A stretch of DNA of 23,199 nucleotides. Source: Methanobacteriota archaeon (lineage in GTDB: Archaea; Thermoplasmatota; Thermoplasmata; UBA10834). The notes under the pieces were generated by a model that worked only from the letters and a program-made list of their open reading frames with translations, ran no database searches and was not told the origin of the DNA. Of the stretch, positions 1-17,535 are shown piece after piece (position 1 is the stretch's first letter; the number at the start of each line of letters is the position of its first letter). A program made the translations under genes and the position numbers. The DNA is taken from contig CP070736.1 of assembly GCA_020347645.1 (NCBI GenBank), positions 920,451 to 943,649 on the forward strand, in the 5' to 3' direction.

Positions 1-78
1 GACGACGCGGTTGAGGTTGTGCTCCTTGATCATCTCTTTGATCTTTTCCTGCGTGTCCTGCGAGCAGGTGTACAGGTT
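1..78. repeat. Near-identical 78-nt tract shared by two hdrA paralogues (partner at 3833..3910)
   Basis: Positions 1..45 are identical to 3833..3877, and the next ~33 nt differ at about 3 positions. Elsewhere the paralogues are clearly more diverged. Confidence 0.7.
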
Positions 79-1536
79 CTCTCCGGCGTACACCACATTC
101 GGAAGGGTTCTGGCGTACTCGGCCACAGAAGGCACCTTCACGACTCCTCCTATGTTGATTCCGCAGTGGCATACGAAGACGCCTATCCGCGGGTCCTGGT
201 TAGCGATGTCCAACTCATCTGGGTACTCCTTCTTGGTCACCAAAGTGTTTCTAGCCGATGCAATCTCCGCCCCCGCTTTCGCAGCAGCCCCACTAGCTTC
301 CGCGACGGTCATCGGTATGTCCTTCGGCGAGGAGAAGGCACCACTCACAAAGATGCCCTGCCTAGAGGAGCTGACAGGATCCATCAGCCCCGTCTTGCAG
401 AATCCATCCTTGTTAAGTTCGAAACCCATTATTTCGCTAAGCACCTCCGCGTCCTCTGGCGGTTCGAGGCCAACGGCTAGAACGACGAGTCCGAACTCCT
501 CCTCCTTAGGCTCGCCCTTCTCGACATATCTTACGACCAGATTTCTCGTTGCGGGGTCCTCGAAAACCGATGCAACCCTTGATCGCACAAACTCAATGCC
601 ATATTCATTCTGTGCCCTGTTGTAGTACTCGTCGAACTCCTTTCCAAACGCCCTCATGTCCATGAAGAATACCTTGGGTTTGATGTTGCCTCCATGCTCC
701 TTTGCGATTATGGCCTCCTTTATCGAATACATGCAGCAAACACCTGAGCAAAACTCGTTTCCCACTCGTTCATCTCTGGACCCGACGCATTGGATGAACG
801 CCACCTTCTCAGGGATATCGCCATCTGAGGGGCGCAGTACTGTGCCGAAATACGGACCCGTGGCACTCAACATTCTCTCGAACTCTATGCTTGTCACTAC
901 GTTCTTGTAGACGCCGTATCCGTACTCGCCCTTCCGGCGAGCGTCGAACTCGTCGAAGCCCGGCGATAGGATGATCGAACCGACTTTGATTTCTGAGATG
1001 TCTTCCTTTTGGTCATATACGATCGCTTCCGCCTTGCACTCCTCAGCGCATATACCGCAGCCTATGCATTTGTCATGGTCAATAGAGTACACCAGAGGAA
1101 CAGCCTGTGGGTAGCGAACATAGATCGCTTTGCGTATCTTCGTGTTCTCGTTGTATTCATCAGATGTTTCGATGGGACAAGTCTGGGCGCAAGAGCCACA
1201 ACCTGTGCACTTCGCGGCATCGATCCTCAACGCCCTCTGTTTCACGGTGACGGTGAAATTCCCGGCCTGTCCGTCCACCGCCGTGATGTCTGCATTCGTG
1301 ACCAAGGTGATGTTATGATGCCTGCCTGTCGATACGAGCTTTGGCGCCATTATGCACATCGCACAGTCGTTCGTGGGGAAGGTCTTGTCCAGCTGGGCCA
1401 TCGCGCCGCCTATGCTCGGCTGTTTCTCGACCAGATAGACCTTGAAGCCAGAATCGGCCAGATCAAGAGCGGACTGAAGGCCAGATATGCCCCCTCCTAC
1501 TACCATGACTGCACCGATCTTCTCGGTTGTCGCCAT
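1..1536 (-). CDS. hdrA: Heterodisulfide reductase subunit A-like flavoprotein, tandem-type paralogue (N-terminal 512 codons; gene continues past window start)
   Basis: The minus-strand frame is open from the ATG at 1536..1534 to position 1, with no stop, so it is absent from the ORF track. Translation starts MATTEKIGAVMVVGGGISGLQSALDLADSGFKVY (FAD Rossmann GxGxxG). It is followed by an inserted 2x[4Fe-4S] ferredoxin domain (CTGCGSC...CP, CIGCGICAEEC) and a later PRIGVFVCHCGINIG...CSQD...NRVV cysteine-cluster domain. Domain order matches the 1000-aa ORF at 2365..5367. The ATG overlaps the TGA of the upstream mvhD-like gene. Confidence 0.8.
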   Translation of the reverse strand, partial: MATTEKIGAVMVVGGGISGLQSALDLADSGFKVYLVEKQPSIGGAMAQLDKTFPTNDCAMCIMAPKLVSTGRHHNITLVTNADITAVDGQAGNFTVTVKQRALRIDAAKCTGCGSCAQTCPIETSDEYNENTKIRKAIYVRYPQAVPLVYSIDHDKCIGCGICAEECKAEAIVYDQKEDISEIKVGSIILSPGFDEFDARRKGEYGYGVYKNVVTSIEFERMLSATGPYFGTVLRPSDGDIPEKVAFIQCVGSRDERVGNEFCSGVCCMYSIKEAIIAKEHGGNIKPKVFFMDMRAFGKEFDEYYNRAQNEYGIEFVRSRVASVFEDPATRNLVVRYVEKGEPKEEEFGLVVLAVGLEPPEDAEVLSEIMGFELNKDGFCKTGLMDPVSSSRQGIFVSGAFSSPKDIPMTVAEASGAAAKAGAEIASARNTLVTKKEYPDELDIANQDPRIGVFVCHCGINIGGVVKVPSVAEYARTLPNVVYAGENLYTCSQDTQEKIKEMIKEHNLNRVV

Positions 1537-2363
1537 CAGCGCTCATCCCCCGTCGCGACGGTCCTGTAGACCGGTGTGAATCCTTCGGAGTGTTCCATTG
1601 CGATCTTGCTGTTCTGTCTAAGAAGAACGATGTGTTTCAGAATCCTGTCAGTGGGAACGTCCATGACCATTCCCAGCTGCTTGACCGACATCGGCCTTAT
1701 CCCTGCCAACTCAAGAATGAGAGCCCTCTCAAACTCGTCTACCACAGCGGTATCAATGATTCTTCCGAGTTTCTCGGGATCGAGTTTGTCGCCGTACGCG
1801 TTTCCTTTATTGAGAAGGTTGAACTCCTTCCCTATCAGCGCCTTCAATCTGAAAGTCTCTGAGGCGTTGTCGGCGGAAGCGGCCCTGACCTTCATCATAT
1901 CATCCGTGAGCACTCTACTCGTTCCAAGCCTCCGAATCTCCTCGGTGAATTCCGTGACGACCTTTGAGAACTTCTCTCCCTCAGACGCAGAAATCCATTC
2001 CAGTCTCAGGCGCGCCTCTTCGATGCCAGCTTCTCTGAGCAACCTTTTCATCAGGCCCACGCGTTTTTCCGTGTGGAAATTGCCCGTCATGTAATGACAG
2101 TCATTCAAGTGGCATCCCCCGATTAGGACGCCATCCGCACCTGCTTCGAACAAATCGAGTACGAGGTGCGGGCTGACTCTAGCGGAACACATCACTCTGA
2201 CTAGCCGGATGTTCGCAGGATACTGGAACCTGCTGACTCCGCACAGATCTGCGCCGGCGTACGAGCACCAATTGCACAAGAAGCCGACGATCTTCGGTTT
2301 CCTCTCTTTGCTAACGTCGGCCTGTACTTTGACCCCATGAGGAGGCTGATGCTTATCCGTCAT
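1536..2363 (-). CDS. mvhD: MvhD/FlpD-family [2Fe-2S] protein with a ~130-aa Cys-free C-terminal extension of unknown function
   Basis: 275-aa ORF. Residues ~20-145 carry the MvhD hallmarks FLCNWCSYAGADL...VMCSARV...GGCHLNDCHY. The C-terminal third (ALILELAGIRPMSVKQLGMVMDVPTDRILKHIVLLRQNSKIA) has no Cys and looks helical, possibly winged-helix-like. The stop overlaps the ATG of the next hdrA. Confidence 0.8.
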   Translation of the reverse strand: MTDKHQPPHGVKVQADVSKERKPKIVGFLCNWCSYAGADLCGVSRFQYPANIRLVRVMCSARVSPHLVLDLFEAGADGVLIGGCHLNDCHYMTGNFHTEKRVGLMKRLLREAGIEEARLRLEWISASEGEKFSKVVTEFTEEIRRLGTSRVLTDDMMKVRAASADNASETFRLKALIGKEFNLLNKGNAYGDKLDPEKLGRIIDTAVVDEFERALILELAGIRPMSVKQLGMVMDVPTDRILKHIVLLRQNSKIAMEHSEGFTPVYRTVATGDER

Positions 2364-2364
2364 G

Positions 2365-5300
2365 TCACCCCTCCTCCAAGGCTGCTCTGGCCATTGCGAT
2401 GAGTTGTTGGTCGGTGTAATGCGTCATGGTAATGGCTCCTTCAGGACAGGTGGCGCCGCAGCAACCGCAGCCCTTGCAAGCAGCGACGATCACTTCGCTG
2501 ACACCATCGCTATTCTTCCTCAAGGCGCTGAACGGACACACTTCTACACAAGTCCCGCAGCCTGAGCATTTGTCTTCGTCCACGACGCTTACCACACCCT
2601 CAGCCTCAATGGAGGATTTCGACAACACCGTGTTCACCCTGGCAGCGGCTGCCAGGGCCTGCGATATGCTCTCATCGATGAGCCTTGGCGAGTGCGCAAG
2701 GCCGCACAAGTAGATGCCATCCGTTGGGAAATCGACCGGCCGGAGCTTCATGTGGGCCTCCAAGAAGAACCCCTCCTTGTTCAGAGGGACCTTCAGCAGC
2801 TGCGCGAGGGCTTTGTTGTCCGGGTTGGGATGGACAGCAGCGTTGAGCACCAGATAGTCCGGTTTCAGAACGATTCTCTGCTCGATGAACTGCTCATCAA
2901 CATGTATCTCGATATCGTCTCCGTCCGCCTGCACCTTCGGTGGCGTTGAAGGGTCGTACCTGAGGAACTTGACTCCTAGGCGCGCAGCTTCGTTATAGTT
3001 TTCTTCGGAAAATCCGTAGGTTCTTATGTCTCTGAAGAGGACATACACCTCGGTATCGGGGTAGTCCTTCTTGATGCTTAGAGCGTTTGTCATCGCCGTT
3101 GAGCAGCAGATTCTGGAGCAGTTCGGGTGCTCGTCGTTTCGAGATCCGACACATTGGATTGTCACGATGCTTTTTGCATCGAATTTACCACTCGAGAGCA
3201 TGTCCCCTAGAGCAGTTTGCCTTATCACCTTCGGATGTTTGCCATACAGATATTCCGTGGGCTCGTACTCTATGGCCCCAGTCGCTACTACGATTGCGCC
3301 GTGTTCAATCTTCTCTCCATCCTTGAGGGTGCTCTCAAAGTTGCCGATATAGCCCTTGACGTCCTCGACGGTGTTCCCAAGATGAACAGTGATGTTCTCA
3401 TTGTGCAGCACTTCCTTCCTCAAGATGGCGAGGGTCCTCCGCGGGTCCACCCCGGCGAGAGTGCTGTGTATCGTCCTGAGATGTCCGCCAAGTTCTTTGC
3501 CCTTCTCGATTAGATGGACTTCGTATCCGGCCTTCGCAATCTCTAGGGCGGAGGTCATTCCACTTAGCCCTCCCCCGATTACGAGCGCGGCCGGCGTTAC
3601 GGGAATCTTGGGCTGTTGGAGCGCCTCAAGTCTGCTTGCTTTGGCTACCGCCATCCGCACGAGGTCCTTAGCCTTCTCCGTCGCAGCTTCGGGCTCCAGT
3701 CGATGGACCCATGAGCATTGATCTCTGATGTTAGCCATCTCGAACAGATATTTGTTCAGCCCCGCCTCTCTTACTGTGTTCTGGAACAGCGGTTCGTGTG
3801 TTCTCGGTGTGCAGCTAGCGACGACGACGCGGTTGAGGTTGTGCTCCTTGATCATCTCTTTGATCTTCTTCTGCGTGTCCTGAGAGCAGGTGTATGTGTT
3901 TGTCTCCGCGTAGACAACTCCTGGGAGTTTGGATGCGTACTCCATCACCTCCGGAACATTCACGACCGATCCAATGTTGATGCCACAATGACAAACGAAG
4001 ACACCTAGTCGCGGTTCCTGATTCGATAGGTCCATTTCTTCAGGGTATTCCTTCTTCGTAACGAGCTTTCCTCTTTGATCCGAGAGGAGAGCGGCAACTT
4101 TGCCCGCTGCGCCGCTCGCCTGGGCTATCGAGTCTGGGATGTCCTTTGGACCGGAGAACGCCCCACATACGAATATCCCAGGCAATGAACTGTCGACCGG
4201 CGAGAGTTCGTCGGTTTCGCAGAAACCGAACTTGTTGGTCTTGATCTTCAAGATCTCTGCGAGTTTGTGGGACATTTCCGGCGGCTCGGCACCGGCCGAG
4301 AGGACAACCATGTCAAAGGTTTCCTCGGAGATGTCAGCAGCGTCTATGAAGCTCAGAGAGAGATCATGGGTTTCCTTGTTCTGCTGAACTCCCGATATCC
4401 GATTGTTCCTGAAGACCCTGACGCCGTATTCGCTCTCCGCTCTCTGAAGGTACTCTTCGAACTCCTTTCCGAACGCACGTGTGTCCATGAAGAACATAGT
4501 TGTTTCGAGTCCAGGCAGATGCTCCTTGGCAATCACCGCTTGCTTCAGCGCCGCCATGCAACAATATGATGAGCAATAGGAATTGGGGGTCTGAGCGTCT
4601 CTCGATCCCACGCACTGAATGAATGCGATGCTCTTCGGCACATCGCCATCTGAAGGTCTGATGACGTGTCCTTCAGTGGGACCAGAAGCGCTGAGCATCC
4701 TTTCGAATTCGATATTGCTGACCACGTTCGCATAGACTCCATGGCCGTACGCGCTTTTCTTGGATGCATCAAACACTTGGTAGCCTGGAGCAAGGACGAT
4801 TGCGCCAACCTCCATCGTTTCGTCGATTTCAGAGTCCATATCGTATTCGATCGCATTCGCCTCGCAGAATTTCTCACATATGCCGCAACCGATGCACAAG
4901 CCTTTGTCGATAGTGTAGACTAGCGGCACTGCCTGAGGAAAAGGAACATAGATCGCCTTGGCCGGGGCGAGATCCCGTTCAAAGGAGTTTGCACCCTCGA
5001 TGGGACAGTGTTCAGCACAAATCCCACAGCAGGTGCACTTATCCTCGTTGATGAAGCGCTGATGTTTCGTGACCGTTACGCTAAACCTGCCCACTTCCCC
5101 TTCGACTTTCTTCAGCTCGGCGTTCGTAATAAGGGTGATGTTCTCGTGTCTTCCCGTGGCAACCAACTTCGGAGAAAGTATGCACATTGAGCAATCGTTT
5201 GTCGGGAAAGTCTTGTCCAACTGGGCCATCGTCCCTCCGATGCTGGGCGTCGTCTCTAATACGTAGACCTTGTACCCGGATTCCGCGAGGTCCAGTGCGG

Positions 5301-5367
5301 CCTGCATCCCGGCTGGTCCTCCGCCCACGACCAAGACCGCTCCGACAACTTCCTTCTTAGCCATCAT
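2365..5367 (-). CDS. hdrA: 1000-aa HdrA-like flavoprotein with two FAD/thioredoxin-reductase-like modules
   Basis: 1000-aa ORF. It has an N-terminal GGGPAGMQAALDLA FAD motif, an inserted ferredoxin (CTCCGICAEHCP, CIGCGICEKFC) and a central VFVCHCGINIG...CSQD...ASCTPRTHE...DQCSWVH cluster domain. A second Rossmann module follows (ALVIGGGLSGMTSALEIA ... CVGSRN ... CCST), then a C-terminal 2x[4Fe-4S] ferredoxin (CSGCGTCVEVCP, CKGCGCCGATCP). The ATG overlaps the TGA of mvhD (ATGA). Confidence 0.85.
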   Translation of the reverse strand: MMAKKEVVGAVLVVGGGPAGMQAALDLAESGYKVYVLETTPSIGGTMAQLDKTFPTNDCSMCILSPKLVATGRHENITLITNAELKKVEGEVGRFSVTVTKHQRFINEDKCTCCGICAEHCPIEGANSFERDLAPAKAIYVPFPQAVPLVYTIDKGLCIGCGICEKFCEANAIEYDMDSEIDETMEVGAIVLAPGYQVFDASKKSAYGHGVYANVVSNIEFERMLSASGPTEGHVIRPSDGDVPKSIAFIQCVGSRDAQTPNSYCSSYCCMAALKQAVIAKEHLPGLETTMFFMDTRAFGKEFEEYLQRAESEYGVRVFRNNRISGVQQNKETHDLSLSFIDAADISEETFDMVVLSAGAEPPEMSHKLAEILKIKTNKFGFCETDELSPVDSSLPGIFVCGAFSGPKDIPDSIAQASGAAGKVAALLSDQRGKLVTKKEYPEEMDLSNQEPRLGVFVCHCGINIGSVVNVPEVMEYASKLPGVVYAETNTYTCSQDTQKKIKEMIKEHNLNRVVVASCTPRTHEPLFQNTVREAGLNKYLFEMANIRDQCSWVHRLEPEAATEKAKDLVRMAVAKASRLEALQQPKIPVTPAALVIGGGLSGMTSALEIAKAGYEVHLIEKGKELGGHLRTIHSTLAGVDPRRTLAILRKEVLHNENITVHLGNTVEDVKGYIGNFESTLKDGEKIEHGAIVVATGAIEYEPTEYLYGKHPKVIRQTALGDMLSSGKFDAKSIVTIQCVGSRNDEHPNCSRICCSTAMTNALSIKKDYPDTEVYVLFRDIRTYGFSEENYNEAARLGVKFLRYDPSTPPKVQADGDDIEIHVDEQFIEQRIVLKPDYLVLNAAVHPNPDNKALAQLLKVPLNKEGFFLEAHMKLRPVDFPTDGIYLCGLAHSPRLIDESISQALAAAARVNTVLSKSSIEAEGVVSVVDEDKCSGCGTCVEVCPFSALRKNSDGVSEVIVAACKGCGCCGATCPEGAITMTHYTDQQLIAMARAALEEG
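3833..3910. repeat. Partner of the 78-nt hdrA-hdrA identity tract at 1..78
   Basis: See the feature at 1..78. The tract encodes the ...HNLNRVVVASCTPRTHE... segment of the Cys-cluster domain. Confidence 0.7.
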
Positions 5368-5810
5368 TGTGCACTCTCCTCGGAAATCGGACCGAGCGCT
5401 TCTAGTTCCGTCACCATCTGTTTAACAACGTCAGCGAATTTGTGTCCCTCAGAACCTGCAATCCATTCAACTCTGAAGCGTTGTGATTCTATCCCCGCAT
5501 CCTCTATGAACTCTGATAGGAAATCCCCTCTTATCGCAGTCTTCTCGTTGCCGTTTATGTAATGACAGTCGGAGGGATGACATCCAGCGATGATCACGCC
5601 GTCCGCTCCGAGCGAGAATGCTTTGAGCACGAAGGCCGGATCGACCCTGCCGGAACACATAACCCTTATGATCTTGACATTCGTGGGATACTGCAGCCTA
5701 GTTGTTCCTGCCAGGTCTGCGCCCGCATATGAGCACCAATTGCAGCAGAAAGCAACAATCTCTGGATTGTAGGCGGGTCGTTCTTCCCGGAGATTCGGAT
5801 GTCCATCCAT
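5364..5810 (-). CDS. mvhD: Methyl-viologen-reducing hydrogenase delta subunit-like protein (MvhD)
   Basis: 148-aa ORF with FCCNWCSYAGADLAG, RVMCSGRV and AGCHPSDCHY motifs typical of MvhD. Sits immediately upstream of hdrA, with a 4-nt ATGA overlap. Confidence 0.85.
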   Translation of the reverse strand: MDGHPNLREERPAYNPEIVAFCCNWCSYAGADLAGTTRLQYPTNVKIIRVMCSGRVDPAFVLKAFSLGADGVIIAGCHPSDCHYINGNEKTAIRGDFLSEFIEDAGIESQRFRVEWIAGSEGHKFADVVKQMVTELEALGPISEESAQ

Positions 5811-5812
5811 GG

Positions 5813-6730
5813 TTAGGTCCCCCTGAGCTTTCTGATAAACGAGTGTACAGAGACGTGATGCGTGTCAAAGCCGAGCGAGTTCGGATCGACCCCCATCGCG
5901 ATGGCCTGGAACTGGGATATGTGCATCACAGGTATCCCCTCCTTAGTGAAGGATTTCTGCGCGTTGTCAAATTGGAGGAGACAGAATGGACATCCCGTGA
6001 CTATGCAGTCCGCTCCGGCATCTGCGATCTTCCTACACTTGTCCTCAGTAATCGAATTGGCCAGCTCCACTACATGGGACCGAACACCGCCGCCGGCGCC
6101 GCAGCAGTCCAACTTGTCTTCGTATTCGATGCTGGTCGCGCCGCATTTCTCTATGATTAGGTCTATGTTGACCGGGTCGTTCGGGTCGTCAATCGTTTGC
6201 TTCTCGGTTGGTCTCAGGTAGTGGCATCCATAATGCACCGCGGCGCGCACATTGCTGAGGGGCTTCCTCGTCCTCTCTGCAATGGTTTCGAGACCAACAT
6301 CATTGATCATGACATCAACATAGTGTCGTACTTTCACTGGCCCCATCACTCGCCGTCGCCCCTCGGTCTTTGTGGGGATTCCAATGTACTTCCTGCCAAT
6401 CTGGGAGAGCACGCGGTTCACCCTGCCGAGGTTCTTTGGGTCGGCGAGGTTCTCGGTAGCTTTGAGCAATGAGGTGAGACAGCCGTTGCAGACGGTGAGG
6501 ATCTCCCTCCGCTCATTCTGAGCGAGCGTCAGGTTTCGCGCAGCTATAAGCAGCCAAGTCCTTTTGTCAGAGGAGTAGAATATGCCTGGAACGGGACAGC
6601 AGGAAAACTCCTCGATGTCCTCTACATCCAGGTTGAATCCGTCGCTACCGCAAACCCACCTGACAGCGTACTCTATGCCCGGATATCGGTTGGGTATGAC
6701 ACAGCCGAAGAAATAGGCGTACTGCGTCAC
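5813..6730 (-). CDS. hdrB: Heterodisulfide reductase subunit B (two CCG domains)
   Basis: 305-aa ORF beginning [18 protein letters not shown]. Contains both cysteine-rich CCG signatures (CCPVPG...C...CNGC and CCGAGGG...CPFC). The start codon is GTG and overlaps the hdrC stop (GTGA). Confidence 0.9.
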   Translation of the reverse strand: MTQYAYFFGCVIPNRYPGIEYAVRWVCGSDGFNLDVEDIEEFSCCPVPGIFYSSDKRTWLLIAARNLTLAQNERREILTVCNGCLTSLLKATENLADPKNLGRVNRVLSQIGRKYIGIPTKTEGRRRVMGPVKVRHYVDVMINDVGLETIAERTRKPLSNVRAAVHYGCHYLRPTEKQTIDDPNDPVNIDLIIEKCGATSIEYEDKLDCCGAGGGVRSHVVELANSITEDKCRKIADAGADCIVTGCPFCLLQFDNAQKSFTKEGIPVMHISQFQAIAMGVDPNSLGFDTHHVSVHSFIRKLRGT

Positions 6731-7311
6731 CCCCTCACCTCACTCTCTATGCCTATGAGCCTGTCATAGCCCGTGGAACGAACCAGCAGGTTAATCTCAC
6801 GTACGACTTTCGCGTATCCTCGAGTGCGCGACGGCATGTCTTCCAGGTCGAGCTCCCTCCTGACTCGCTCAATCTCAGAGTCAGGTTTGACGCTTTGGCC
6901 GTACTCGACGAGGTTTGTCGCAGCCAACTTGATGAAGGGTGGTATGACACCCTCCTTTATTGCCATGTGTCTGAGCGCTATCATCACTTCAGCAGGGTTT
7001 ATGTCGGCAGGGCAGTATTCATAACACCTGTAGCAGGTAGCACAGACCCACCTCATCTCAAGCGTGAACTTCTTAAGCCCAAACTGACAGAATTTGATTA
7101 TGCTTCTGGTCTTGTAGTCAATCTTGAGACTTATTGGACAGACGCCCGTGCAATTCCCGCATTGGAGACAAGTCATCACATCTTTGCCTCCATGCTTCAC
7201 GATTTCTTTGGCGAAATTCGGTTCAAGGTGCGACTCATCAATGATTTTGTCCTCGGCCAACTTCTCATGAAGGCCGCCTATGAATGTCTTCTCTACTTCT
7301 CCCATGATCAT
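6727..7311 (-). CDS. hdrC: Heterodisulfide reductase subunit C (2x[4Fe-4S] ferredoxin)
   Basis: 194-aa ORF with [12 protein letters not shown] and [12 protein letters not shown] motifs. The ATG overlaps the hdrA TGA (ATGA). Confidence 0.9.
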
Positions 7312-9473
7312 GCACCCTCCGCCCTATTCGCATCTTTCTTTGTCTTGCCGGCCGCCCTGCCAACACCTCCAAGGGCTGACGCGATTTCCGAAGTTATCTG
7401 CTCATCAGTGAACTGGTTCGCCGCTATGGCTTTTTGCGGACACGCCGGGACACAAGTCCCGCATCCATGACAGAGCGCTTCCACGATCTTCGCTTTTGAG
7501 CCCGTCTCGCTTTCGTGGACTTCCGGCGCGCCATAAGGACACATCTCAACGCACAGCCCGCATCCGACGCAAAGCTCTTCATCGACAATTGCTGTCAGAG
7601 GTTCAATTCTAACCTGTTTGCCAGCCATGATTGCGGCTGCGGATGCCGCAGCCGCTTTCGCCTGGGCCACCGAATCTGGGATGTCCTTGGGACCCTGTGC
7701 GCATCCCGCGAGGTATATGCCATCGATGGCGGTGTCGACAGGTCGGAGCTTTGGGTGCGCTTCCTGAAAGAATCCATCAGAGCTGAGAGAAAGCGGCAAG
7801 ACCTTGCCAATCCTCTTGCTTCCCTCGGACGGTTTGAGCCCCGTCGCTAGAACAATCAGGTCGAACTCCCTCTCCGTGATCTTGCTGAGCAGGGTCTCCT
7901 CCGCTCTTATCGTGATGGAGCCGGTTTCCGGATTCTCACTAAGCTTTGCTGGCCGACCTCTTATGAATTCAATTCCGTACTCTTCTCTAACGCGATGGTA
8001 CAGTTCCTCGAAGCCCTTCCCAAACGCTCTGATGTCATTGTAGTAAACAGCGATATCGGTGTCGGGTTGGTGCTCCTTGATTATCTGCGCATTCTTGATT
8101 GTATACATGCAGCAGACCCGCGAGCAGTAGGCGGATCCCAACTTCCTGTTCCTCGATCCTACGCATTGGATGAATGCAACCCTCTTTGGCGGCTTTCCAT
8201 CGGATGGTCTGATGAAATTCCCTCCAGTAGGACCCGAGGCGTTTATCAATCGTTCGAGTTCCAGGCCTGTTATGACGTTCCGGGACTCCCAATACCTGTA
8301 AACATCCCGCTTCTTCGGGACATATATGTCGAAGCCAGTGGCGCAAATGATCGTGCCGACTTTCAACTCAATTTCATCGTCGACAATTTCGTAATCTATT
8401 GCATCGTTGGAGCAAGCCTTGACACAAGCTCCGCATTTGCCGGTCTTGAAGTGAATGCAGTTCTCTCTATCGATCGTATACTTGAGCGGGACCGCCTGTG
8501 GAAAGGGAACGTAGATTGCCTTCCTCTTGCCAAAGCCTAGGTCGAACTTGTTGTCGACTTTGACCGGGCATGCGTCGGCACACACTCCACACCCGACGCA
8601 CTTGCTCTCATCGACATAGCGAGCCTTCTTCCTGACCTTCACATTATAATTGCCTATGAACCCGTGGATTTCTTCGACCTCGGAATATGAAAGGAGTGTG
8701 ATGTTTGGGTGCCTCGATAGCTCCACCATTTTGGGGGCCAATATACATATGGCACAGTCTCCCGTCGGAAAAGTCTTGTCCAATTGGGCCATGCGGCCGC
8801 CAATACTCGGCTCGGATTCGACGACGTAGACTTTAAATCCCATCTCCGCCAGGTCGAGTGCGGCTTGGATCCCCGCCACTCCTCCCCCAATAACCAGTGA
8901 CGATTGCTCTACGGGCACCTCTCTGGCCTCAAGCGGTTCTAGCCTTGCAGCCTTTGCTACCCCCATTCTCACTAGACCGATCGCCTTCTCAGTAGCCTTG
9001 TCTTTCTCTCGGGAGTGCACCCAAGAGCACTGCTCTCTGAGATTTACCATCTGCAACAGATACGGGTTGAGGCCAGCCTGCTTGACACAGTTCCTGAAAG
9101 TCGGTTCATGCATCCTTGGAGAGCACGCGGCAATGACAACTCTCTCGACCCCATTCTGTTTGATTGCAGAAATTATCTCATCCTGTCCAAGGTCTGAACA
9201 GGTGTACTTATTCTCTTTGGCAGTGACAACGCCCGGCAGCTTCTCTGCGGCCTCCCTGACTTTTGACGGATTAACGGTGCCTGCTATGTTGCTGCCGCAA
9301 TGACAGATGAAGACGCCTATACGCGGATTCGAAGAGATGCTATTCACCTCTCTCGCCGTTTCTCCGACTCCGTTTTCTCCGAGCGACTCATATGAATTCA
9401 CATCATCACTCCATGCTAAGACCGGCATTACTTCGTTTAGTCCGAGTAATCCCGCAATTACCGTTAAGCGCAA
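7308..9473 (-). CDS. hdrA: Heterodisulfide reductase subunit A, classical domain order (N-terminal Cys-cluster domain, FAD domain, inserted ferredoxin, C-terminal ferredoxin)
   Basis: The ORF-track start at 9473 is a TTG. In-frame alternatives are ATG at 9428 and a GTG at 9401 preceded by GGAGTGA, and the true N-terminus is probably one of these. Sequence shows [16 protein letters not shown]...CSDLGQ...AACSPRMHE...EQCSWVH, then [35 protein letters not shown]...CSRVCC, and C-terminal [12 protein letters not shown]...[12 protein letters not shown]. Confidence 0.9.
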
Positions 9474-9826: not shown

Positions 9827-10918
9827 TCAAGTCTTGTCGAGTCTTGTACGACGGTATCTGTGCGAGATATGGCAACTCCCTTCGCGCGAAACCATGCATG
9901 GTCCAATAGGATTCTCCGGAGTACATTTCCTGTCAAACAGTGGGCATTCCTCGCTTGTTATGATGCCCCGTAGAATCTCGCCACACCTGCAACCATCAGG
10001 CTCTATGCATTCCGCGTCTGCGGCGGCAGCAATTGTATCAGAGAAACGCTTGCTGGCATCGTGAATCTCAAGCTCGTTCTTCACCGACATCCCACTTTCG
10101 GGGATCACAGGGAATCCACGCCAGATAGCGTCTGTCGGCGTAAAAGCATCCCTAATAGCCTTCAGCGCCGTCGGGTTTCCGGCTGGTTTCACCACTCGCG
10201 AGTATTCGTTCTGCACCTCGCCCCTCCCCTCGGAGTGCTGTTTGGCCAAGAGGTAGACAGCCACCATGAGATCGAGGGGCTCGAAACCGGCCACAACCTG
10301 AGGTATTCCGTACTCTTCCGACAGAAATTCGTAGGGCGCGGTGCCGATAATTGCGCTCACGTGGCCAGGTTGAATCATGCCGTGGAGCTTTATCTCCCCC
10401 ATCGAAGATATCGCTCTCAGAGCCGGGGGAACGATTCTATGGAAACTCAGAACAGAGAAGTTATCCGGCGGACTCGATAGAAGGGCCGTAGCCGTTGTGG
10501 GCGCAGTTGTCTCAAAGCCGATTCCTACGAAGACCACCTCACCATGCGATTGTCTGGCAATATCAACCGCGTCGTCCACGCCGAAAACGATTCTGACGTC
10601 TCCTCCCTCGGCTTTGATGTCCCCGAGCGATTGCCTCTTGCCAGGAACTCTCATCAGGTCCCCGAATGCTGCTATAGTTATTCCAGCCCTTGCGAGTGCC
10701 ATCGTCGTTTCAATCTCCTGCGGTGGCGTTATGCACACCGGGCATCCTGGTCCTTGACGAATATCGATTCCGACTCTTTGAAATTCGCTGTCAAGACCGA
10801 ACCTGACGAGGGTGTCTTGGTGGGTGCCGCAAACGTGCATGAGGGTGATGTCGAGCCTCATCTCTTTCAGCTCTTTCAGTATCTTTTGGGACATCTCCCT
10901 GTCTCTCAGCCTAAACAT
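9827..10918 (-). CDS. hypD: [NiFe]-hydrogenase maturation factor HypD
   Basis: 363-aa ORF with MHVCGTHQD, GPGCPVCITP, FETTAP and a C-terminal Cys cluster (CRCG...ECPLF...C). Starts at ATG; overlaps hypA by 8 nt. Confidence 0.9.
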   Translation of the reverse strand: MFRLRDREMSQKILKELKEMRLDITLMHVCGTHQDTLVRFGLDSEFQRVGIDIRQGPGCPVCITPPQEIETTMALARAGITIAAFGDLMRVPGKRQSLGDIKAEGGDVRIVFGVDDAVDIARQSHGEVVFVGIGFETTAPTTATALLSSPPDNFSVLSFHRIVPPALRAISSMGEIKLHGMIQPGHVSAIIGTAPYEFLSEEYGIPQVVAGFEPLDLMVAVYLLAKQHSEGRGEVQNEYSRVVKPAGNPTALKAIRDAFTPTDAIWRGFPVIPESGMSVKNELEIHDASKRFSDTIAAAADAECIEPDGCRCGEILRGIITSEECPLFDRKCTPENPIGPCMVSREGSCHISHRYRRTRLDKT

Positions 10919-11285
10919 CCGGCACCACCATAGCGATGTTCCTTATGACGCAGTCACGGCCGCCTGTGACCTTTGCGAGATCCCCGCATCTTGGGCATTC
11001 GAACGCAGAAGCCAGAGCATGGGGCCTGTCGTTCGATGGCGACGTCTTTCCTCTGAATCCGCAGCTGCATTCAATCTCGCCATCCACGGTTTGCAGGTCC
11101 AAGATCGCCCCTTCGAGCAGGGTATTCTTAGACAACACTTCGAAGGCGAATCTAAGCTGATAGTGCCCGAGCATGGTGAACTCTCCCAGCTCGACTGTGA
11201 CCCTCTCTATCCTGGACGCGTTCCTGCTTTTCGCCTCATCGATTACGCTGGTGACTATTTCGCTCATAACGGAAAACTCATGCAT
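10911..11285 (-). CDS. hypA: Hydrogenase nickel-insertion protein HypA
   Basis: 124-aa ORF. Begins MHEFSVMSEIV (conserved MHE). Has two zinc-site motifs, CSCG and CPRCG. Confidence 0.85.
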   Translation of the reverse strand: MHEFSVMSEIVTSVIDEAKSRNASRIERVTVELGEFTMLGHYQLRFAFEVLSKNTLLEGAILDLQTVDGEIECSCGFRGKTSPSNDRPHALASAFECPRCGDLAKVTGGRDCVIRNIAMVVPDV

Positions 11286-11288
11286 GAC

Positions 11289-11516
11289 TCAAGCCCCGGC
11301 ATCGTCCTGCGTAAGCAGCTCCCTAAACAGTTGGAGAGTTTTCTCCGCCTCCTCTCTGTCGAGTACTTCAATCGCGTATCCAGCATGCACTATGACGAAA
11401 TCTCCGACTTTGGCGTCGACGAGCGATATGTTCACAGATCTCGCGACTCCTCCGAAGTCGGCTTTTGCCACTGCCCCGTCTATGGTTATGATTTCTGCCG
11501 GAACAGCAAGGCACAT
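11289..11516 (-). CDS. hypC: Hydrogenase assembly chaperone HypC
   Basis: 75-aa ORF beginning MCLAVPAEII (HypC signature N-terminal Cys2). Confidence 0.9.
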   Translation of the reverse strand: MCLAVPAEIITIDGAVAKADFGGVARSVNISLVDAKVGDFVIVHAGYAIEVLDREEAEKTLQLFRELLTQDDAGA

Positions 11517-11551
11517 CGCAGCGTCATTATGAATGGTTCGTTCATAAAGTT

Positions 11552-13759
11552 TTAGCCGAGCAGGCTGCCAGCTATCGCGTTTTGACCTGTGGATATGCCA
11601 CCGTCTCCGTTTGGAACTCGCTCGTGGGTCACAAAGAAGAGACCATTCCTTGAAATCGTTCGCTCAACCCAATTCGAAATTGGATTGCTGTATGAGACTC
11701 CTCCAGTCAAGCCCACATTCGAGAACCCCTTCTTCTCCGCAATCTCGCAGGCTTTTTCAGCAAGCGCTGAGACAAGCGAGCAAACGAAAGACGCCGCCAC
11801 ATCAGCCTTTTGAGTGTTTGTGTCCATGCGTGTTTCTAGTATTCTCGCGAACATCGGCACTGTCTCCGCGTACTCAATCCCATTCCGCACTCCGAACTTC
11901 ACCTCGAAGTCGTTGCTGACGCTACCTTTCTCCAGCCATCTCTCGAGCTTGATTGCCGGCTCCCCCTCGTAAGTCCGTTTGCAGGAGAAGCCGAGAATGC
12001 AGGATAAAGCGTCGAGTACGCGACCCATGCTGGACGCCTTGACGCTGTTACCCATCATCTTGGAGTAGATGTCCACCTCCTCAGAACGAACGAGCGTCGG
12101 CTCCAACCCTATCATGAGTTGGAGAGCAGTGACAACTCTTCTGGGGTCTAATACGGCTTTATCTCCTCCCAGCAGAGGTAAGCCCTGCAACGTGCATAGC
12201 CTCTTGTATTTCCGGAAATCGGCGAGCAATGTCTCACCGCCCCATGATGTGCCGTCATCACCATAGCCAGTCCCGTCCCAGGCCAGGGCGACGATGGGCT
12301 CGAAGACCCTTCGATCTATCATGAGTGAAGCAGCGTGAGCGTGGTAGTGTTGCACCTCCACCATCTGACAGCCGTGTTCCTCAGCCAGTTGTCTAGCCAT
12401 TATTCTCGTAGAATATCTGGGATGCTTATCAAGGGAAATCGCATCAACATGCTCGGTTCCAAGCAATCCCGAGAGGTGACGTATTGCATTCCCTAGGTAT
12501 TGAAGCGTAGGGTGTTGTTGCGATTCTCCAATGTATTGGGTAAGGAATATCTCCCTGTTTCGGGTGATTGAGCCCGTGACATCCCATTGAGCTCCCACTC
12601 CTATGACAGTCTTGTCGTGATTCGCCTCAAGAGGGAGCGGCACAAATCCTCGGGATTTCCTAATGAAGCTGAGGTGATCGCCCCGCGGTTTCACAACGCT
12701 GTCGTCGCATCTGTGAATTATCCTGCGGTCGTGTAGCAGGTAGCAGTCTAATCCGAGTTCGAATGCCTTCGAGTTTTCCACCACCATCGGCTCTCCGGGC
12801 GGGTTCGCAGATGTCATTATCACCGCGTCCGCTTCCAGATGTGCGAATAGCAGCATGTGCGCAGCGGAGTAGGGCAACATGATACCCACATTATCCAAAC
12901 CCGGTGCAACCCCTTCCAGTGCCGACATTACCTCTTCCTTCTTCTTCAGGAGCACGATCGGTCTCTGGGGTGATCTAAGCACCCTTTCCTCGGCTTCGCT
13001 GACGTAGGCGTACCGCTTCGCGGCCTCAATGTCCCTTGTCATTATCGCATACGGCTTGTCTCCACGACGGTAGATCTTCCTCAGTCTCGGCGAACTTGCG
13101 AGTGCACAGACTATGTGCATCCCACCCCATCCCTTCAGAATGCCTACCCGCCCGTCATCGATATTTCTGGCGAATTCAAAGAAAGGTTCTCCTGCGACGA
13201 CCTCCCCGATGTGATCACGCAGCTCGTATGTCGGACCACATTCAGGGCAAGAGATTACCTGCGCGTGAAACCGCCTGTTCTCAGGATATTCATATTCGTC
13301 TAGGCAGGACTCGCACATTCTAAAATCCGACATACTGGTCCTGTCACGGTCGAAAGGCACACCCGTGATGATCGTGAACCGTGGTCCGCACTCAGTGCAA
13401 TTGGTGAATGGGTATCGATGTCTCTTGTCAGTGCATCTTTCGAAGTCGTCAACGCAGTTACCGCAAATCGCGGTGTCGGTGGGGATGAGGGATTCCTTTC
13501 TTCCCTCTCTGCTCCCCACTATCGAAAAGCCTTGTTGACCGCAATCGTACTCCTCAATCTCCACCCGGTCGATTCTCGCGAGTGACGGCAGCGCTTTCCT
13601 CAACCTCTTGAGGAACTCGTCGACGTCGCGATCCACGCAAATCTCCGCGTTCGAACCGTTGTTCAGAACATAGCCGTTGAGTCCCATCGCTCTGGCCACT
13701 CTGTATACAGTTGGTCTGAACCCAACACCTTGGACAACGCCGTAAACAGTAACTCTCAT
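11552..13759 (-). CDS. hypF: Carbamoyltransferase HypF
   Basis: 735-aa ORF. Has an acylphosphatase-like N-terminus (VYGVVQGVGFRPTVYRVA), two CxxC...CxxC zinc-finger pairs, and YrdC-like and Kae1-like domains. Strong SD (GGATAGGAG) upstream of the ATG. Confidence 0.9.
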   Translation of the reverse strand: MRVTVYGVVQGVGFRPTVYRVARAMGLNGYVLNNGSNAEICVDRDVDEFLKRLRKALPSLARIDRVEIEEYDCGQQGFSIVGSREGRKESLIPTDTAICGNCVDDFERCTDKRHRYPFTNCTECGPRFTIITGVPFDRDRTSMSDFRMCESCLDEYEYPENRRFHAQVISCPECGPTYELRDHIGEVVAGEPFFEFARNIDDGRVGILKGWGGMHIVCALASSPRLRKIYRRGDKPYAIMTRDIEAAKRYAYVSEAEERVLRSPQRPIVLLKKKEEVMSALEGVAPGLDNVGIMLPYSAAHMLLFAHLEADAVIMTSANPPGEPMVVENSKAFELGLDCYLLHDRRIIHRCDDSVVKPRGDHLSFIRKSRGFVPLPLEANHDKTVIGVGAQWDVTGSITRNREIFLTQYIGESQQHPTLQYLGNAIRHLSGLLGTEHVDAISLDKHPRYSTRIMARQLAEEHGCQMVEVQHYHAHAASLMIDRRVFEPIVALAWDGTGYGDDGTSWGGETLLADFRKYKRLCTLQGLPLLGGDKAVLDPRRVVTALQLMIGLEPTLVRSEEVDIYSKMMGNSVKASSMGRVLDALSCILGFSCKRTYEGEPAIKLERWLEKGSVSNDFEVKFGVRNGIEYAETVPMFARILETRMDTNTQKADVAASFVCSLVSALAEKACEIAEKKGFSNVGLTGGVSYSNPISNWVERTISRNGLFFVTHERVPNGDGGISTGQNAIAGSLLG

Positions 13760-13769
13760 CTCCTATCCT

Positions 13770-14420
13770 CTAGAGCTCCAGTGCCGATAGAAGATCATCG
13801 ACTCCAGTTCCATTTCGAGCATCCATGGCGATGATGTCCGCCTTCGGGTTTGCCTTCCTCGCATCTCCTTCGAGCGTTTCGATGTTGACTTCCATAGCAT
13901 CAGCCAGCCCAATCTTGTTGATTACTATGATATCCGAGAAGGCGAAAATTGCGGGATGTTTTCTAACCATATCATCCCCTTCCGTGACGCTTATAACGAC
14001 AATCCTCTTGTGCGATCCAAGCGGGAAATCGACCGGACAGACCAGGTTTCCAACATTCTCGATGAAGAGGTAATCGAGCTCACTCAACGGTAGCTTCTCG
14101 AGCGCGTGATCAACCAGATGCGCATCGAGGTGACATTCTTTGCCTGTGCTTATGTTGACTCCGGGTATGTCATGTGATACGAATCGTCTATAATCATCGT
14201 CTCCTGATACGTCACCGGAGATGGCGGCACACTTCTTGCCCTTCGCTTTCAGCCGATCTATCAACCTCTCGATTATCAGCGTCTTGCCGGAGCCTATGCC
14301 TCCGAGGAAATCGAACGATCGAATGCCGTGCTCATCGAGCAAAGCCCTATTCTGTTCCGCCAGTTTCCTGTTGGCAGAGAGGATATTCTTCTCTAGGTCA
14401 ACGTCGACAGTCTTGTGCAT
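13770..14420 (-). CDS. hypB: Hydrogenase nickel-incorporation GTPase HypB
   Basis: Has Walker A GGIGSGKT, ENVGNLVCP, and a GDD...Y motif. I placed the start at the in-frame ATG at 14420 (MHKTVDVD). The ORF track extends to a TTG at 14486, but the extra 22 residues are not HypB-like. Confidence 0.85.
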   Translation of the reverse strand: MHKTVDVDLEKNILSANRKLAEQNRALLDEHGIRSFDFLGGIGSGKTLIIERLIDRLKAKGKKCAAISGDVSGDDDYRRFVSHDIPGVNISTGKECHLDAHLVDHALEKLPLSELDYLFIENVGNLVCPVDFPLGSHKRIVVISVTEGDDMVRKHPAIFAFSDIIVINKIGLADAMEVNIETLEGDARKANPKADIIAMDARNGTGVDDLLSALEL

Positions 14421-14516
14421 GTTGTTGAGAAGCAGCCTTCTCGGAATAATCTTTTCGCCCCAAATGTGTGCCGCCGTTATCGGCAAGTGTTGAATTCTGC
14501 TACCTACTCTCCATCA

Positions 14517-16508: not shown

Positions 16509-16590
16509 GGTGCGCGTAAATGTCGATGAATCGGGTGGAGAGACAGGCGTAATCCGCTGAACGCTCAAGAGGGATTGATTTCCCTCGCTA

Positions 16591-16620
16591 AACCCTTTTC
16601 CCATATTCTGTTTATGTTGC
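16591..16620 (+). terminator. Possible oligo-T termination signal after the Kelch gene
   Basis: T-runs (CCCTTTTCCC, CTGTTTATGTT) within 110 nt downstream of the stop. Archaeal termination uses oligo-T. The placement is weak. Confidence 0.2.
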
Positions 16621-16633
16621 ATTGTCTCACAGC

Positions 16634-16718
16634 TACAGAGGGATTCGAACCTCTGCCAAGCCAGTAGGTCCGAAGTCGGAGGAAATCAAGAGGAATTTCG
16701 TACCGGGGACAAACCCTT
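16634..16718 (-). repeat. tRNA-like repeat copy A (T-arm/acceptor-like core plus ~60-nt extension)
   Basis: The reverse complement contains GGTTCGAATCCCTCTG... About 95% identical to copy C over ~85 nt. Same orientation as copies B, C, E and D. Confidence 0.6.
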
Positions 16719-16878
16719 TTCAATCATTCCATGCCGAGAGAACTACCCTCTTTCAAGAAATGAATTCACTCGGCACTGAATTCGACTCGTTGGCTATGTT
16801 CTAAGAAGCGATTGGAGATTTCGGGAAGAGTGTTGAGAAGATTGATATCCACCAGCAAGATTACCCTGTGAGTAATCC

Positions 16879-17520: not shown

Positions 17521-17535
17521 GGATTCAATAAAGTT

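What the first reader, a model, noticed from the sequence alone, without database searches (positions are those of the whole stretch)
2365..5367. 1000-aa HdrA-like protein: Cys-cluster domain lies between two FAD modules, not at the N-terminus
In classical HdrA, as in the ORF at 7308..9473, the CHCG...CSxD...C...TP...C [4Fe-4S] domain is N-terminal. Here it follows the first FAD/ferredoxin module, about 460 residues in. A second complete Rossmann/thioredoxin-reductase-like module comes next (ALVIGGGLSGMTSALEIA ... CVGSRN ... CCST), then a terminal di-cluster ferredoxin. The truncated paralogue at 1..1536 shows the same order. This looks like a duplicated or permuted HdrA architecture with potentially two flavins per polypeptide.
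Basis: seen in the sequence. Interest (0 to 1): 0.55.

Follow-up and report, generated by a model that had tools for sequence, protein, structure and literature searches.

The report
Two HdrA flavoproteins fused into one
The 1000-residue protein is real, but it is a known kind of enzyme: two different, complementary HdrA flavoproteins joined end to end, so the Cys-cluster domain in the middle is just the start of the second half.

Summary
The ORF lies on the minus strand (5367 to 2365, 1000 aa).

**Layout**
- First thioredoxin-reductase (TrxR) flavin module with its inserted two-cluster ferredoxin: residues 1-435.
- HdrA "N-terminal" Cys-cluster domain: residues 450-585.
- Second TrxR module with no inserted ferredoxin: residues 586-918.
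- C-terminal two-cluster ferredoxin: residues 919-1000.

**What it is**
- It is not a permutation. It is a fusion of two diverged HdrA paralogues that are about 33% identical to each other.
- Relatives carry the same two halves as adjacent separate genes, in the same order.
- The halves are complementary. Only half 1 has the Cys197-equivalent (C62), the inserted ferredoxin and the Lys/Glu pair held to be needed for bifurcation (K275, E222). [quoted passage not shown]
- By analogy with solved HdrA dimers, this gives one complete electron-bifurcating unit per chain.

**Second flavin site**
- In this Thermoplasmata clade it has lost the Lys/Glu pair (T760, G721).

**Novelty**
- The architecture is published: fused HdrA3/4, "type II HdrA", and the two-FAD HdrA of Moorella.
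- It is widespread in archaea and bacteria.
- Verdict: an ordinary new member of a known kind.

The parts
2365..5367 (-). Whole gene: 1000-aa fused double HdrA (identical to NCBI UCE80434.1)
   Evidence: ORF list and translation. 100% identical database entry P0001, from a MAG contig of 1.42 Mb.
5053..5367 (-). Module 1, TrxR/FAD domain part a (residues 1-105). Contains GGGPAG 15-20, and C59 and C62, which correspond to Cys194 and Cys197 of solved HdrA.
   Evidence: Alignment to PDB HdrA chains 8rvu and 5odc. C59 and C62 are conserved, or C62 is encoded as TGA (Sec), across the family.
4822..5052 (-). Inserted ferredoxin domain of module 1 (residues 106-182), with two [4Fe-4S] motifs
   Evidence: Pfam Fer4 hits and alignment to HdrA 243-325. 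All eight Cys are conserved in at least 99 of 109 representatives.
4063..4821 (-). Module 1, TrxR domain part b (residues 183-435). Contains E222 (=E356), cluster cysteines C252/C265/C269/C270, K275 (=K409) and GPKDIPDS.
   Evidence: Alignment to 5odc. E222 is conserved in 107/109 and K275 in 106/109 representatives.
4021..4062 (-). Fusion linker (residues 436-449)
   Evidence: Least conserved stretch of the protein across the family: mean top-residue frequency 0.19, against 0.42-0.51 for the domains.
3613..4020 (-). HdrA N-terminal-type [4Fe-4S] domain, belonging to module 2 (residues 450-585). Cysteines C459, C461, C494, C519, C551.
   Evidence: Aligns to residues 1-140 of solved HdrA at about 65% identity. 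Most conserved region within the clade.
2614..3612 (-). Module 2, TrxR/FAD domain without inserted ferredoxin (residues 586-918). Has GGGLSG 598-603, E621 and cluster cysteines C739/C750/C754/C755. No Cys197 equivalent. G721 stands in place of E356 and T760 in place of K409.
   Evidence: Alignment of residues 443-1000 to 8rvu_a. Self-alignment. Column counts. Conservation equal to module 1.
2368..2613 (-). C-terminal two-cluster ferredoxin domain (residues 919-1000)
   Evidence: Pfam Fer4 and Fer4_21 hits. Aligns to HdrA 570-655.
5364..5810 (-). mvhD (148 aa, FlpD domain), immediately upstream. Its stop overlaps the start of the fused HdrA.
   Evidence: Pfam PF02662, E 4e-53. Junction sequence.
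1536..2363 (-). Long mvhD (275 aa: FlpD domain plus a C-terminal extension of about 125 aa with no family match), immediately downstream
   Evidence: Pfam PF02662, E 9e-53. The extension has no Pfam hit. 79% identical orthologue in L001.
1..1536 (-). Second fused HdrA paralogue, cut by the window edge (first 512 residues visible: module 1 plus the start of the N-type domain)
   Evidence: Translation. 55% identical to module 1. Full-length orthologues of 1012-1013 aa in L001, L002 and L004.
5813..9473 (-). Canonical hdrA (7308-9473), hdrC (6727-7311) and hdrB (5813-6730), upstream in the same tightly packed gene string
   Evidence: Pfam and NCBIfam hits. HdrA motifs are all present, including DCAIC, LELER and CCMYTIK.

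Best explanation
The gene encodes a fused ("type II") HdrA. Two diverged HdrA paralogues are joined into one chain, which acts as its own asymmetric partner.

**What each half carries**
- Half 1 (residues 1-435) is an HdrA core. It has the FAD site, the Lys/Glu pair K275/E222, a [4Fe-4S] cluster in the TrxR domain, the inserted two-cluster ferredoxin domain, and the cysteine (C62) that in solved HdrA dimers completes the cluster of the partner's N-terminal domain.
[quoted passage not shown] It has lost what half 1 has: the Cys197 equivalent and the inserted ferredoxin.

**Inferred mechanism**
- By that analogy, the chain contains one complete bifurcating unit. Electrons enter from MvhD through the domains of half 2 to the FAD of half 1. 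There they split. One branch goes through half 1's TrxR-domain cluster towards an HdrC/B-type disulfide reductase. The other goes through the inserted ferredoxin domain towards ferredoxin.
- The second TrxR module most likely still binds FAD and a [4Fe-4S] cluster. It would be a non-bifurcating site, serving as a scaffold and/or an auxiliary electron entry or exit.

**Shown versus inferred**
- Shown here: domain map, homology, residue conservation, split-gene relatives and operon context.
- Inferred: the packing of the two halves, electron routes, flavin occupancy and the physiological substrates.
For: **Domain map**
- One search gives three non-collinear matches to PDB HdrA, E about 1e-207.
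- One search shows residues 443-1000 equal a full HdrA minus only the inserted ferredoxin domain, E 3.7e-133.
- Foldseek of the AlphaFold2 model (pLDDT 76.6, pTM 0.80) finds HdrA chains for both halves. One set of hits has TM 0.75 over about 655 alignment columns at 36% identity. The other has TM 0.90 over about 423 columns at 48% identity. I assign the longer hits to half 2 and the shorter to half 1 from their length and identity, because the tool gave no query ranges.

**Complementarity**
- C59 and C62 occur only in half 1. The corresponding residues in half 2 are P and T.

**Conservation**
- E222 and K275 are near-universal in 109 representatives and 101 genomic homologues.
- So are the second GxGxxG, E621 and the four cysteines C739/750/754/755.
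- Module 2 is as conserved as module 1.

**Fusion origin**
- Adjacent split genes occur in the same order in relatives: L004 9312-10610 (432 aa) plus 10611-12479 (622 aa), and likewise in L002 and L001.
- They are 47% and 46% identical to modules 1 and 2. The two modules are 33% identical to each other.

**Cross-protomer logic**
- Cys197 comes from the partner protomer (PMC9012536).

**Other support**
- Precedent: the fused HdrA of Moorella harbours two FAD, one proposed as bifurcating (PMC5861303).
- Context: translationally coupled hdrA-hdrC-hdrB-mvhD-[this gene]-mvhD-[paralogue].
Against: - The relative packing of the two halves could not be checked. The tools return no model coordinates, so the pseudo-dimer geometry rests on analogy.
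- The universal retention of the second TrxR-domain cluster, and the retention of the Lys/Glu pair at the second flavin in about 65-70% of the wider family, shows that module 2 is more than a scaffold in most members. It could carry real chemistry here too.
- No dedicated HdrB/C/D-type gene directly flanks this gene in the window. Relatives have an MvhD-HdrD-like fusion right after it. The high-potential acceptor arm is therefore not defined here.
- Lyu et al. (PMC12054007) propose two bifurcation events per type II HdrA.
- The substrates (donor, disulfide) are unknown for this uncultured Thermoplasmata lineage.
Confidence: 0.7

Rival explanations
1. Both flavin modules are independent electron-bifurcating sites, so one polypeptide performs two bifurcation events. 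Lyu et al. suggested this for type II HdrA in general.
For: - Both modules keep the FAD fingerprint and a TrxR-domain [4Fe-4S] site.
- In most of the wider family, module 2 also keeps the Lys/Glu pair (E in 77/109 and K in 68/109 representatives).
- PMC12054007 argues for this.
Against: - In this protein and its clade the pair is gone. Position 721 is G in 31/34 sequences and position 760 is A or T in 34/34.
- Module 2 has no inserted ferredoxin domain.
- No N- or C-terminal domains are contributed by module 1 to serve module 2.
- Module 2 has no Cys197 equivalent. Two of the three electron routes needed at a bifurcating HdrA flavin are therefore missing.
Confidence: 0.08
2. The second flavin is a hydride-donor entry site, for example NAD(P)H or F420H2 oxidised directly at FAD2. 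The fused enzyme would then carry its own electron-input module instead of relying on a hydrogenase or formate dehydrogenase arm.
For: - In the Moorella MetFV-HdrABC-MvhD complex, the NADH-binding site is assigned to the fused HdrA, which holds two FAD (PMC8515935; PMC5861303).
- No hydrogenase, FdhB or NuoF-type gene lies in this operon.
- Module 2 is under strong purifying selection.
Against: - There is no recognisable second nucleotide-binding motif. The position of the NADPH-domain GxGxxG is occupied by the cluster motif CVGSRN.
- Two mvhD genes flank the gene, and MvhD is the usual adaptor to an external donor module.
- hyp maturation genes next door point to a [NiFe]-hydrogenase somewhere in the genome.
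Confidence: 0.15
3. The second TrxR module is a degenerate, flavin-free scaffold kept only to mimic the dimer partner.
For: - It has lost the Lys/Glu pair.
- The GPKD motif near the flavin is changed to SPRL (H892, R895, L896).
- It has lost the inserted ferredoxin.
Against: - GGGLSG, E621 and the GG motif are invariant or nearly so in the clade. The three Gly and E621 are held in at least 103 of 109 representatives across phyla.
- The four cluster cysteines are retained in at least 103/109.
- Overall conservation equals that of module 1.
- Two FAD per fused HdrA were measured in Moorella (PMC5861303).
Confidence: 0.06
4. The long ORF is an assembly or annotation artefact that joins two adjacent hdrA genes.
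For: Split versions of the two halves exist as neighbouring genes in related genomes.
Against: - Uninterrupted ORFs of about 1000 aa with the same order occur in 101 of the retrieved genomic loci, from many archaeal and bacterial phyla, including complete genomes of cultured Desulfosarcina variabilis and Desulfopila.
- There are 8000 database hits, and the top 120 are mostly 1000-1015 aa.
- The linker is conserved within the clade (0.76).
Confidence: 0.01

Closest known systems
Type II HdrA (class A3/A4) of Lyu, Yu & Lu 2025 (PMC12054007), equal to the fused HdrA3/HdrA4 of Chadwick et al. 2022 (PMC9012536)
   Same: - Two TrxR modules in one chain of about 1000 aa.
- N-part like class A6: no N-terminal cluster domain and no C-terminal ferredoxin.
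- C-part like class A12.
- Cys197 and the N-domain are complementary between the halves.
- mvhD lies next door.
- A Methanoperedens homologue (L017) aligns over residues 6-989 in the same order.
   Different: - The host is an uncultured Thermoplasmata archaeon rather than a described methane-metabolising archaeon.
- There are no FdhB or inactive-molybdopterin neighbours.
- Module 2 lacks the K409/E356 equivalents that about 75% of type II sequences keep.
- Chadwick's text states the opposite order of the two halves (N-domain-bearing half first). That is not what is seen here or in L017.
HdrA of the Moorella thermoacetica MetFV-HdrABC-MvhD methylene-H4F reductase (Mock et al. 2014, as reported in PMC5861303, PMC8515935 and PMC9012536)
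   Same: It is described as two fused HdrA domains with complementary loss of Cys197 and the N-domain. It was purified with MvhD and HdrBC. Two FAD were measured per HdrA, one of them proposed as bifurcating.
   Different: No metF or metV genes lie in this window. The Moorella sequence could not be fetched here, so the residue-level comparison was not done. NADH use is unknown for the window's protein.
Canonical HdrA of HdrABC-MvhADG, Fdh-Hdr or Elp-Hdr (PDB 5ODC, 7BKB, 8RVU)
   Same: Every domain of the window's protein has its counterpart there, at 36-65% identity. The cofactor-binding cysteines and the Lys/Glu pair of module 1 are identical in position.
   Different: The canonical enzyme is a homodimer of identical 650-aa chains with two equivalent bifurcating sites. 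Here one chain carries two non-equivalent halves and, by inference, one complete site. NCBIfam scores fall below the equivalog cut-offs and the match is split into three stretches.
Tandem, unfused HdrA pairs (HdrA5/6 and 12/13 of Chadwick et al.; class A6 plus A12)
   Same: The same two complementary halves occur in the same gene order in close relatives of this organism: L004 432 aa plus 622 aa; also L001 and L002.
   Different: They are separate polypeptides. The stand-alone A12-like proteins keep E and K at the second flavin.
HdrL of Desulfobacterium autotrophicum, and type III HdrA (HdrA fused or interrupted with a GltD-like NAD(P)H module)
   Same: These are large HdrA-derived proteins followed by mvhD. 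Relatives of 1,470-1,490 aa with a GltD-type domain (PF14691) appear among the hits.
   Different: The window's protein has no GltD/Fer4_20 domain.

Membership tests
Fused / type II HdrA (HdrA3/4; class A3) | Two thioredoxin-reductase-type FAD modules in one polypeptide | tested here: met
   Pfam Pyr_redox_2 and NAD_binding_8 each hit twice. Self-alignment is 33% identical, E 1e-28. Each half aligns to PDB HdrA.
Fused / type II HdrA (HdrA3/4; class A3) | The first half is A6-like: TrxR core with inserted ferredoxin domain, no N-terminal cluster domain and no C-terminal ferredoxin | tested here: met
   Residues 10-373 match HdrA 153-515 only. 47% identical to a stand-alone 432-aa HdrA.
Fused / type II HdrA (HdrA3/4; class A3) | The second half is A12-like: N-terminal cluster domain plus TrxR core plus C-terminal ferredoxin | tested here: met
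   Residues 443-1000 match HdrA 7-242 and 326-655, with the inserted ferredoxin skipped. 46% identical over full length to a stand-alone 622-aa HdrA.
Fused / type II HdrA (HdrA3/4; class A3) | Complementary presence of the Cys197 ligand and of the N-terminal cluster domain in the two halves | tested here: met
   C62 (=Cys197) occurs only in half 1. The N-type domain occurs only in half 2. The half-2 residues at the Cys194/197 positions are P and T. The pattern holds in 101 homologues.
Fused / type II HdrA (HdrA3/4; class A3) | K409/E356 equivalents at both flavins (reported for about 75% of type II sequences; typical, not strictly defining) | tested here: not met
   Module 1 has K275 and E222. 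Module 2 has T760 and G721. Within the clade, position 721 is G in 31/34 and position 760 is A or T in 34/34.
Fused / type II HdrA (HdrA3/4; class A3) | Gene cluster with mvhD, with or without hdrBC; 14% of clusters also have fdhB and an inactive molybdopterin protein | tested here: met
   mvhD lies on both sides and hdrCB upstream. No fdhB or molybdopterin gene is in the window. That sub-feature is absent.
Canonical HdrA (NCBIfam NF041778, NF040770, NF041891) | Collinear full-length match above the curated cut-off, with the cluster domain at the N-terminus | tested here: not met
   Scores are 1027.9 against a cut-off of 1100, 751.7 against 1400, and 707.5 against 1300. Each match is in three stretches.
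HdrL / type III HdrA (HdrA with GltD-like module) | GltD-type NAD(P)H/Fe-S domain (PF14691) within the protein | tested here: not met
   PF14691 is not among the 25 best of the 30 Pfam families hit at E <= 0.01, nor in the precomputed Pfam list of the identical protein P0001. It is present only in longer relatives.
Moorella-type MetFV-HdrABC-MvhD reductase | metF and metV encoded with the fused hdrA | tested here: not met
   No such genes were found among the window ORFs scanned.
Moorella-type MetFV-HdrABC-MvhD reductase | Two FAD bound per HdrA polypeptide | not testable with these tools
   Only sequence fingerprints can be read. Both are intact: GGGPAG with E38, and GGGLSG with E621.
   G598, G600, G603, E621, G627 and G628 are present. 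They are invariant or nearly so in the clade. The three Gly and E621 are held in at least 103/109 representatives and in all full-length genomic homologues.

The most novel reading that the evidence does not exclude
In this Thermoplasmata lineage, both fused paralogues have specifically replaced the Lys/Glu pair at the second flavin, while keeping that flavin's binding fingerprint and its [4Fe-4S] site under strong selection. The replacements are G721 with A/T760 in one paralogue, and K721 with T/S760 in the other. The second module may therefore have been repurposed as a non-bifurcating two-electron gate, for example direct oxidation of a soluble hydride donor. That would make the single chain a self-contained donor-plus-bifurcation enzyme, and a natural "half-sites" HdrA.
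Probability: 0.2. Interest if true: 0.45.

Novelty: new member of a known kind. Interest (0 to 1): 0.22.

Why it matters
The finding does not change what is known. Fused double HdrAs have been purified (Moorella), catalogued in methane-metabolising archaea and in Asgard/TACK archaea, and interpreted as built-in heterodimers.

The modest value here has three parts:
- A clean residue-level map shows that the two halves together supply exactly one set of the parts a bifurcating HdrA flavin needs.
- The same lineage also carries the unfused gene pair in the same order, which explains why the "N-terminal" domain sits mid-chain.
- This clade has lost the Lys/Glu pair at the second flavin. That makes it a convenient natural test case for asking what the second flavin of type II HdrA does.

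No structure of a fused HdrA is in the PDB copy searched.

Tried and rejected
- **Circular permutation:** rejected. There are two full TrxR modules, and residues 443-1000 are collinear with a whole HdrA.
- **Recent internal duplication:** rejected. The halves are 33% identical to each other but 46-47% identical to distinct stand-alone paralogues.
- **Misassembled gene pair:** rejected.
- **The downstream long mvhD as a recombination chimera explaining the three-gene difference from relatives:** rejected. It is a full-length orthologue (79%) of the relatives' long mvhD.

Dead ends:
- The window's own contig is not in the gene-position index, so the region beyond the left edge could not be read.
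- A second homologue search with the truncated paralogue returned mainly partial proteins and gave no usable full-length entry.
- The AlphaFold-database fold library was unavailable.
- Mock et al. 2014 is not held, so its findings are cited second hand.
- The C-terminal extension of the long MvhD has no Pfam match, even at E = 10.
- No tRNA genes are in the window.
- Model coordinates are not returned, so the packing of the two halves and the Cys-to-Cys distances could not be measured.


Full report

Yes. The ORF at 2365..5367 is on the minus strand, is 1000 aa long and starts with ATG. It is identical to a deposited MAG protein, UCE80434.1, annotated only as [quoted passage not shown].

The neighbour at 7308..9473 (minus) is a canonical HdrA with the Cys-cluster domain at its N-terminus. 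The truncated ORF at 1..1536 (minus) repeats the unusual order as far as it runs.

**2. Anatomy**

phmmer against PDB chains matches solved HdrA at E about 1e-207, but in three non-collinear pieces:
- residues 10-373 to HdrA 153-515 (TrxR core with the inserted ferredoxin domain)
- residues 443-622 to HdrA 1-174 (N-terminal cluster domain and the start of the Rossmann fold)

Searched alone, residues 443-1000 align end to end with a canonical HdrA at E 3.7e-133. Only HdrA 243-325, the inserted ferredoxin domain, is skipped.

The protein is therefore [HdrA core + inserted ferredoxin] - 14-residue linker - [N-domain + HdrA core without inserted ferredoxin + C-terminal ferredoxin].

The two cores are 31-33% identical (E 1e-28).

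An AlphaFold2 model (pLDDT 76.6, pTM 0.80) finds HdrA chains for both halves in Foldseek. One set of hits has TM 0.75 over about 655 alignment columns at 36% identity. The other has TM 0.90 over about 423 columns at 48% identity. I assign the longer hits to half 2 and the shorter to half 1 from their length and identity, because the tool gave no query ranges. No solved chain of about 1000 aa of this kind turned up.

**3. Residue-level reading**

Numbering follows the solved Methanothermococcus thermolithotrophicus HdrA (5ODC).

| Feature | Module 1 | Module 2 |
|---|---|---|
| FAD fingerprint | GGGPAG, E38 | GGGLSG 598-603, E621, G627-G628 |
| TrxR-domain cluster cysteines | C252/C265/C269/C270 | C739/C750/C754/C755 |
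| Cys194 / Cys197 equivalents | C59 / C62 | P / T |
| E356 equivalent | E222 | G721 |
| K409 equivalent | K275 | T760 |

Across 109 representatives of the fused family (no more than 50% mutual identity) and 101 full-length genomic homologues:
- The module 1 Lys/Glu pair is near-universal.
- The second GxGxxG, E621 and the second set of cluster cysteines are also near-universal.
- The module 2 Lys/Glu equivalents are present in only about 65-70% of the 109 representatives.

In the clade of this protein (34 sequences of 64-100% identity), position 721 is G in 31/34 and position 760 is A or T in 34/34. Orthologues of the second paralogue have K721 with T or S at 760.

Module 2 is as conserved as module 1, within the clade and across the family. 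It is not decaying.

The second site does lack the two residues that the literature treats as the hallmark of a bifurcating HdrA flavin (PMC12054007).

**4. Origin**

Close relatives carry, next to their fused genes, a pair of separate genes in the same order:
- a 432-aa HdrA, 47% identical to module 1
- a 622-aa HdrA, 46% identical to module 2 over its full length

Examples are L004 9312-10610 and 10611-12479, and also L001 and L002.

The TrxR part of module 2 is only about 35% identical to canonical HdrA. Module 2 and these stand-alone proteins therefore form their own lineage.

The fused gene is thus an end-to-end fusion of two old, complementary paralogues. That fully explains the mid-chain "N-terminal" domain. 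The linker is the least conserved stretch of the protein.

**5. How it most likely works**

- In solved (HdrABC)2 complexes, one cysteine of the N-terminal domain's cluster comes from the partner's TrxR domain (Cys197; PMC9012536).
[quoted passage not shown] The high-potential branch leaves through that protomer's own TrxR cluster. The low-potential branch leaves through its own inserted ferredoxin domain (PMC12350162).

Mapped onto this chain, everything that must sit around one bifurcating flavin is present exactly once:
- FAD1, K275/E222, the TrxR cluster, the inserted ferredoxin and C62 come from half 1.

The reciprocal set for FAD2 is missing.

I therefore infer one bifurcating unit per chain, with module 2 as a flavin- and cluster-bearing but non-bifurcating partner. 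This matches the "own heterodimeric partner" idea of Chadwick et al., and the Moorella finding of two FAD with one proposed as bifurcating (PMC5861303).

**6. Context**

On the minus strand the genes run:
hypB (13770-14486), hypF, hypC (11289-11516), hypA, hypD, then hdrA-hdrC-hdrB-mvhD-[fused hdrA]-[long mvhD]-[second fused hdrA].

The starts and stops across the two mvhD and two fused hdrA genes overlap or are one base apart.

In relatives, each hdrA-type gene is followed by an mvhD. The orthologue of this gene is followed by an MvhD-HdrD-like fusion. After that come the split pair, the long mvhD and the second fused paralogue. The window lacks those three genes.

The donor and the disulfide substrate remain unknown. 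[quoted passage not shown]

**7. Distribution and novelty**

- The database search returned 8000 hits, and the top 120 are mostly 1000-1015 aa.
- The exhaustive representative search found 3010 clusters at E <= 1e-30.
- A scan of one genome per species returned at least 598 loci. The best 80 span Thermoplasmata, Bathyarchaeia, Methanomassiliicoccales, Methanoperedens, Archaeoglobi, Asgard archaea, Chloroflexota, Actinomycetota and many Desulfobacterota, including cultured Desulfosarcina variabilis and Desulfopila.

The architecture has been described repeatedly: PMC9012536 (HdrA3/4), PMC12054007 (type II), PMC11237513 (fusion of duplicated HdrA in Asgard/TACK), and the Moorella enzyme.

Verdict: a correct observation of a known kind of protein, with a small clade-specific twist at the second flavin.

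Noticed in passing
L050 10160-10162, L046 10160-10162, L065 10184-10186, L026 4804-4806, L029 10175-10177 (homologues of window residue C62, nt 5182-5184): In the five Desulfobacterota homologues inspected, the codon for the Cys197 equivalent is an in-frame TGA (…TNDCSM[TGA]ILSPK…). About 35 further loci have their ORF starting right after this position. This implies selenocysteine at the residue that completes the partner domain's cluster. Gene callers split or truncate these genes there.
   Followed up: partly
window 2364 versus L001 13033-19378 and L004 7061-12479: Relatives have three extra genes between the fused hdrA and the long mvhD. These are an MvhD-HdrC/B-like (HdrD-type) fusion, an A6-like HdrA (in L001 fused to a GltD-type domain), and an A12-like HdrA. 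The window lacks all three, so its fused HdrA has no dedicated disulfide-reductase gene beside it.
   Followed up: partly
window 1536-2363 (minus), residues about 150-275: The downstream MvhD carries a C-terminal extension of about 125 residues with no Pfam match, even at E = 10. It is conserved (79% overall identity) in the orthologue of a related genome.
   Followed up: partly
window 9321-9473 (minus): The canonical hdrA ORF as listed starts at a TTG and has about 50 residues before the match to HdrA models begins (residue 51). The true start is probably further downstream.
   Followed up: no
window 9827-14486 (minus): A complete [NiFe]-hydrogenase maturation set, hypB-hypF-hypC-hypA-hypD, lies directly upstream of the hdr string. 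hypC (75 aa, MCLAVP…) is at 11289-11516. No hydrogenase structural gene is in the window.
   Followed up: partly
PMC9012536 text versus window 2365-5367 and L017 9860-13129: Chadwick et al. write that in fused HdrA3/4 the N-terminal half carries the N-domain and lacks Cys197. Here, and in a Methanoperedens homologue, the order is the reverse: the Cys197-bearing half comes first. Either their sentence is inverted or a second fusion order exists.
   Followed up: partly
P0095, P0100-P0104 and others; P0122-P0128: Close relatives of 1,320-1,530 aa carry an extra GltD-type (PF14691) segment inserted into or ahead of module 1. These are a larger variant of the same fused protein.
   Followed up: no
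window 14859-18997 (plus): On the opposite strand lie a 549-aa Kelch-repeat protein, a 213-aa ferredoxin-domain protein and a 487-aa NosD/beta-helix protein. They are unrelated to the hdr genes.
   Followed up: no
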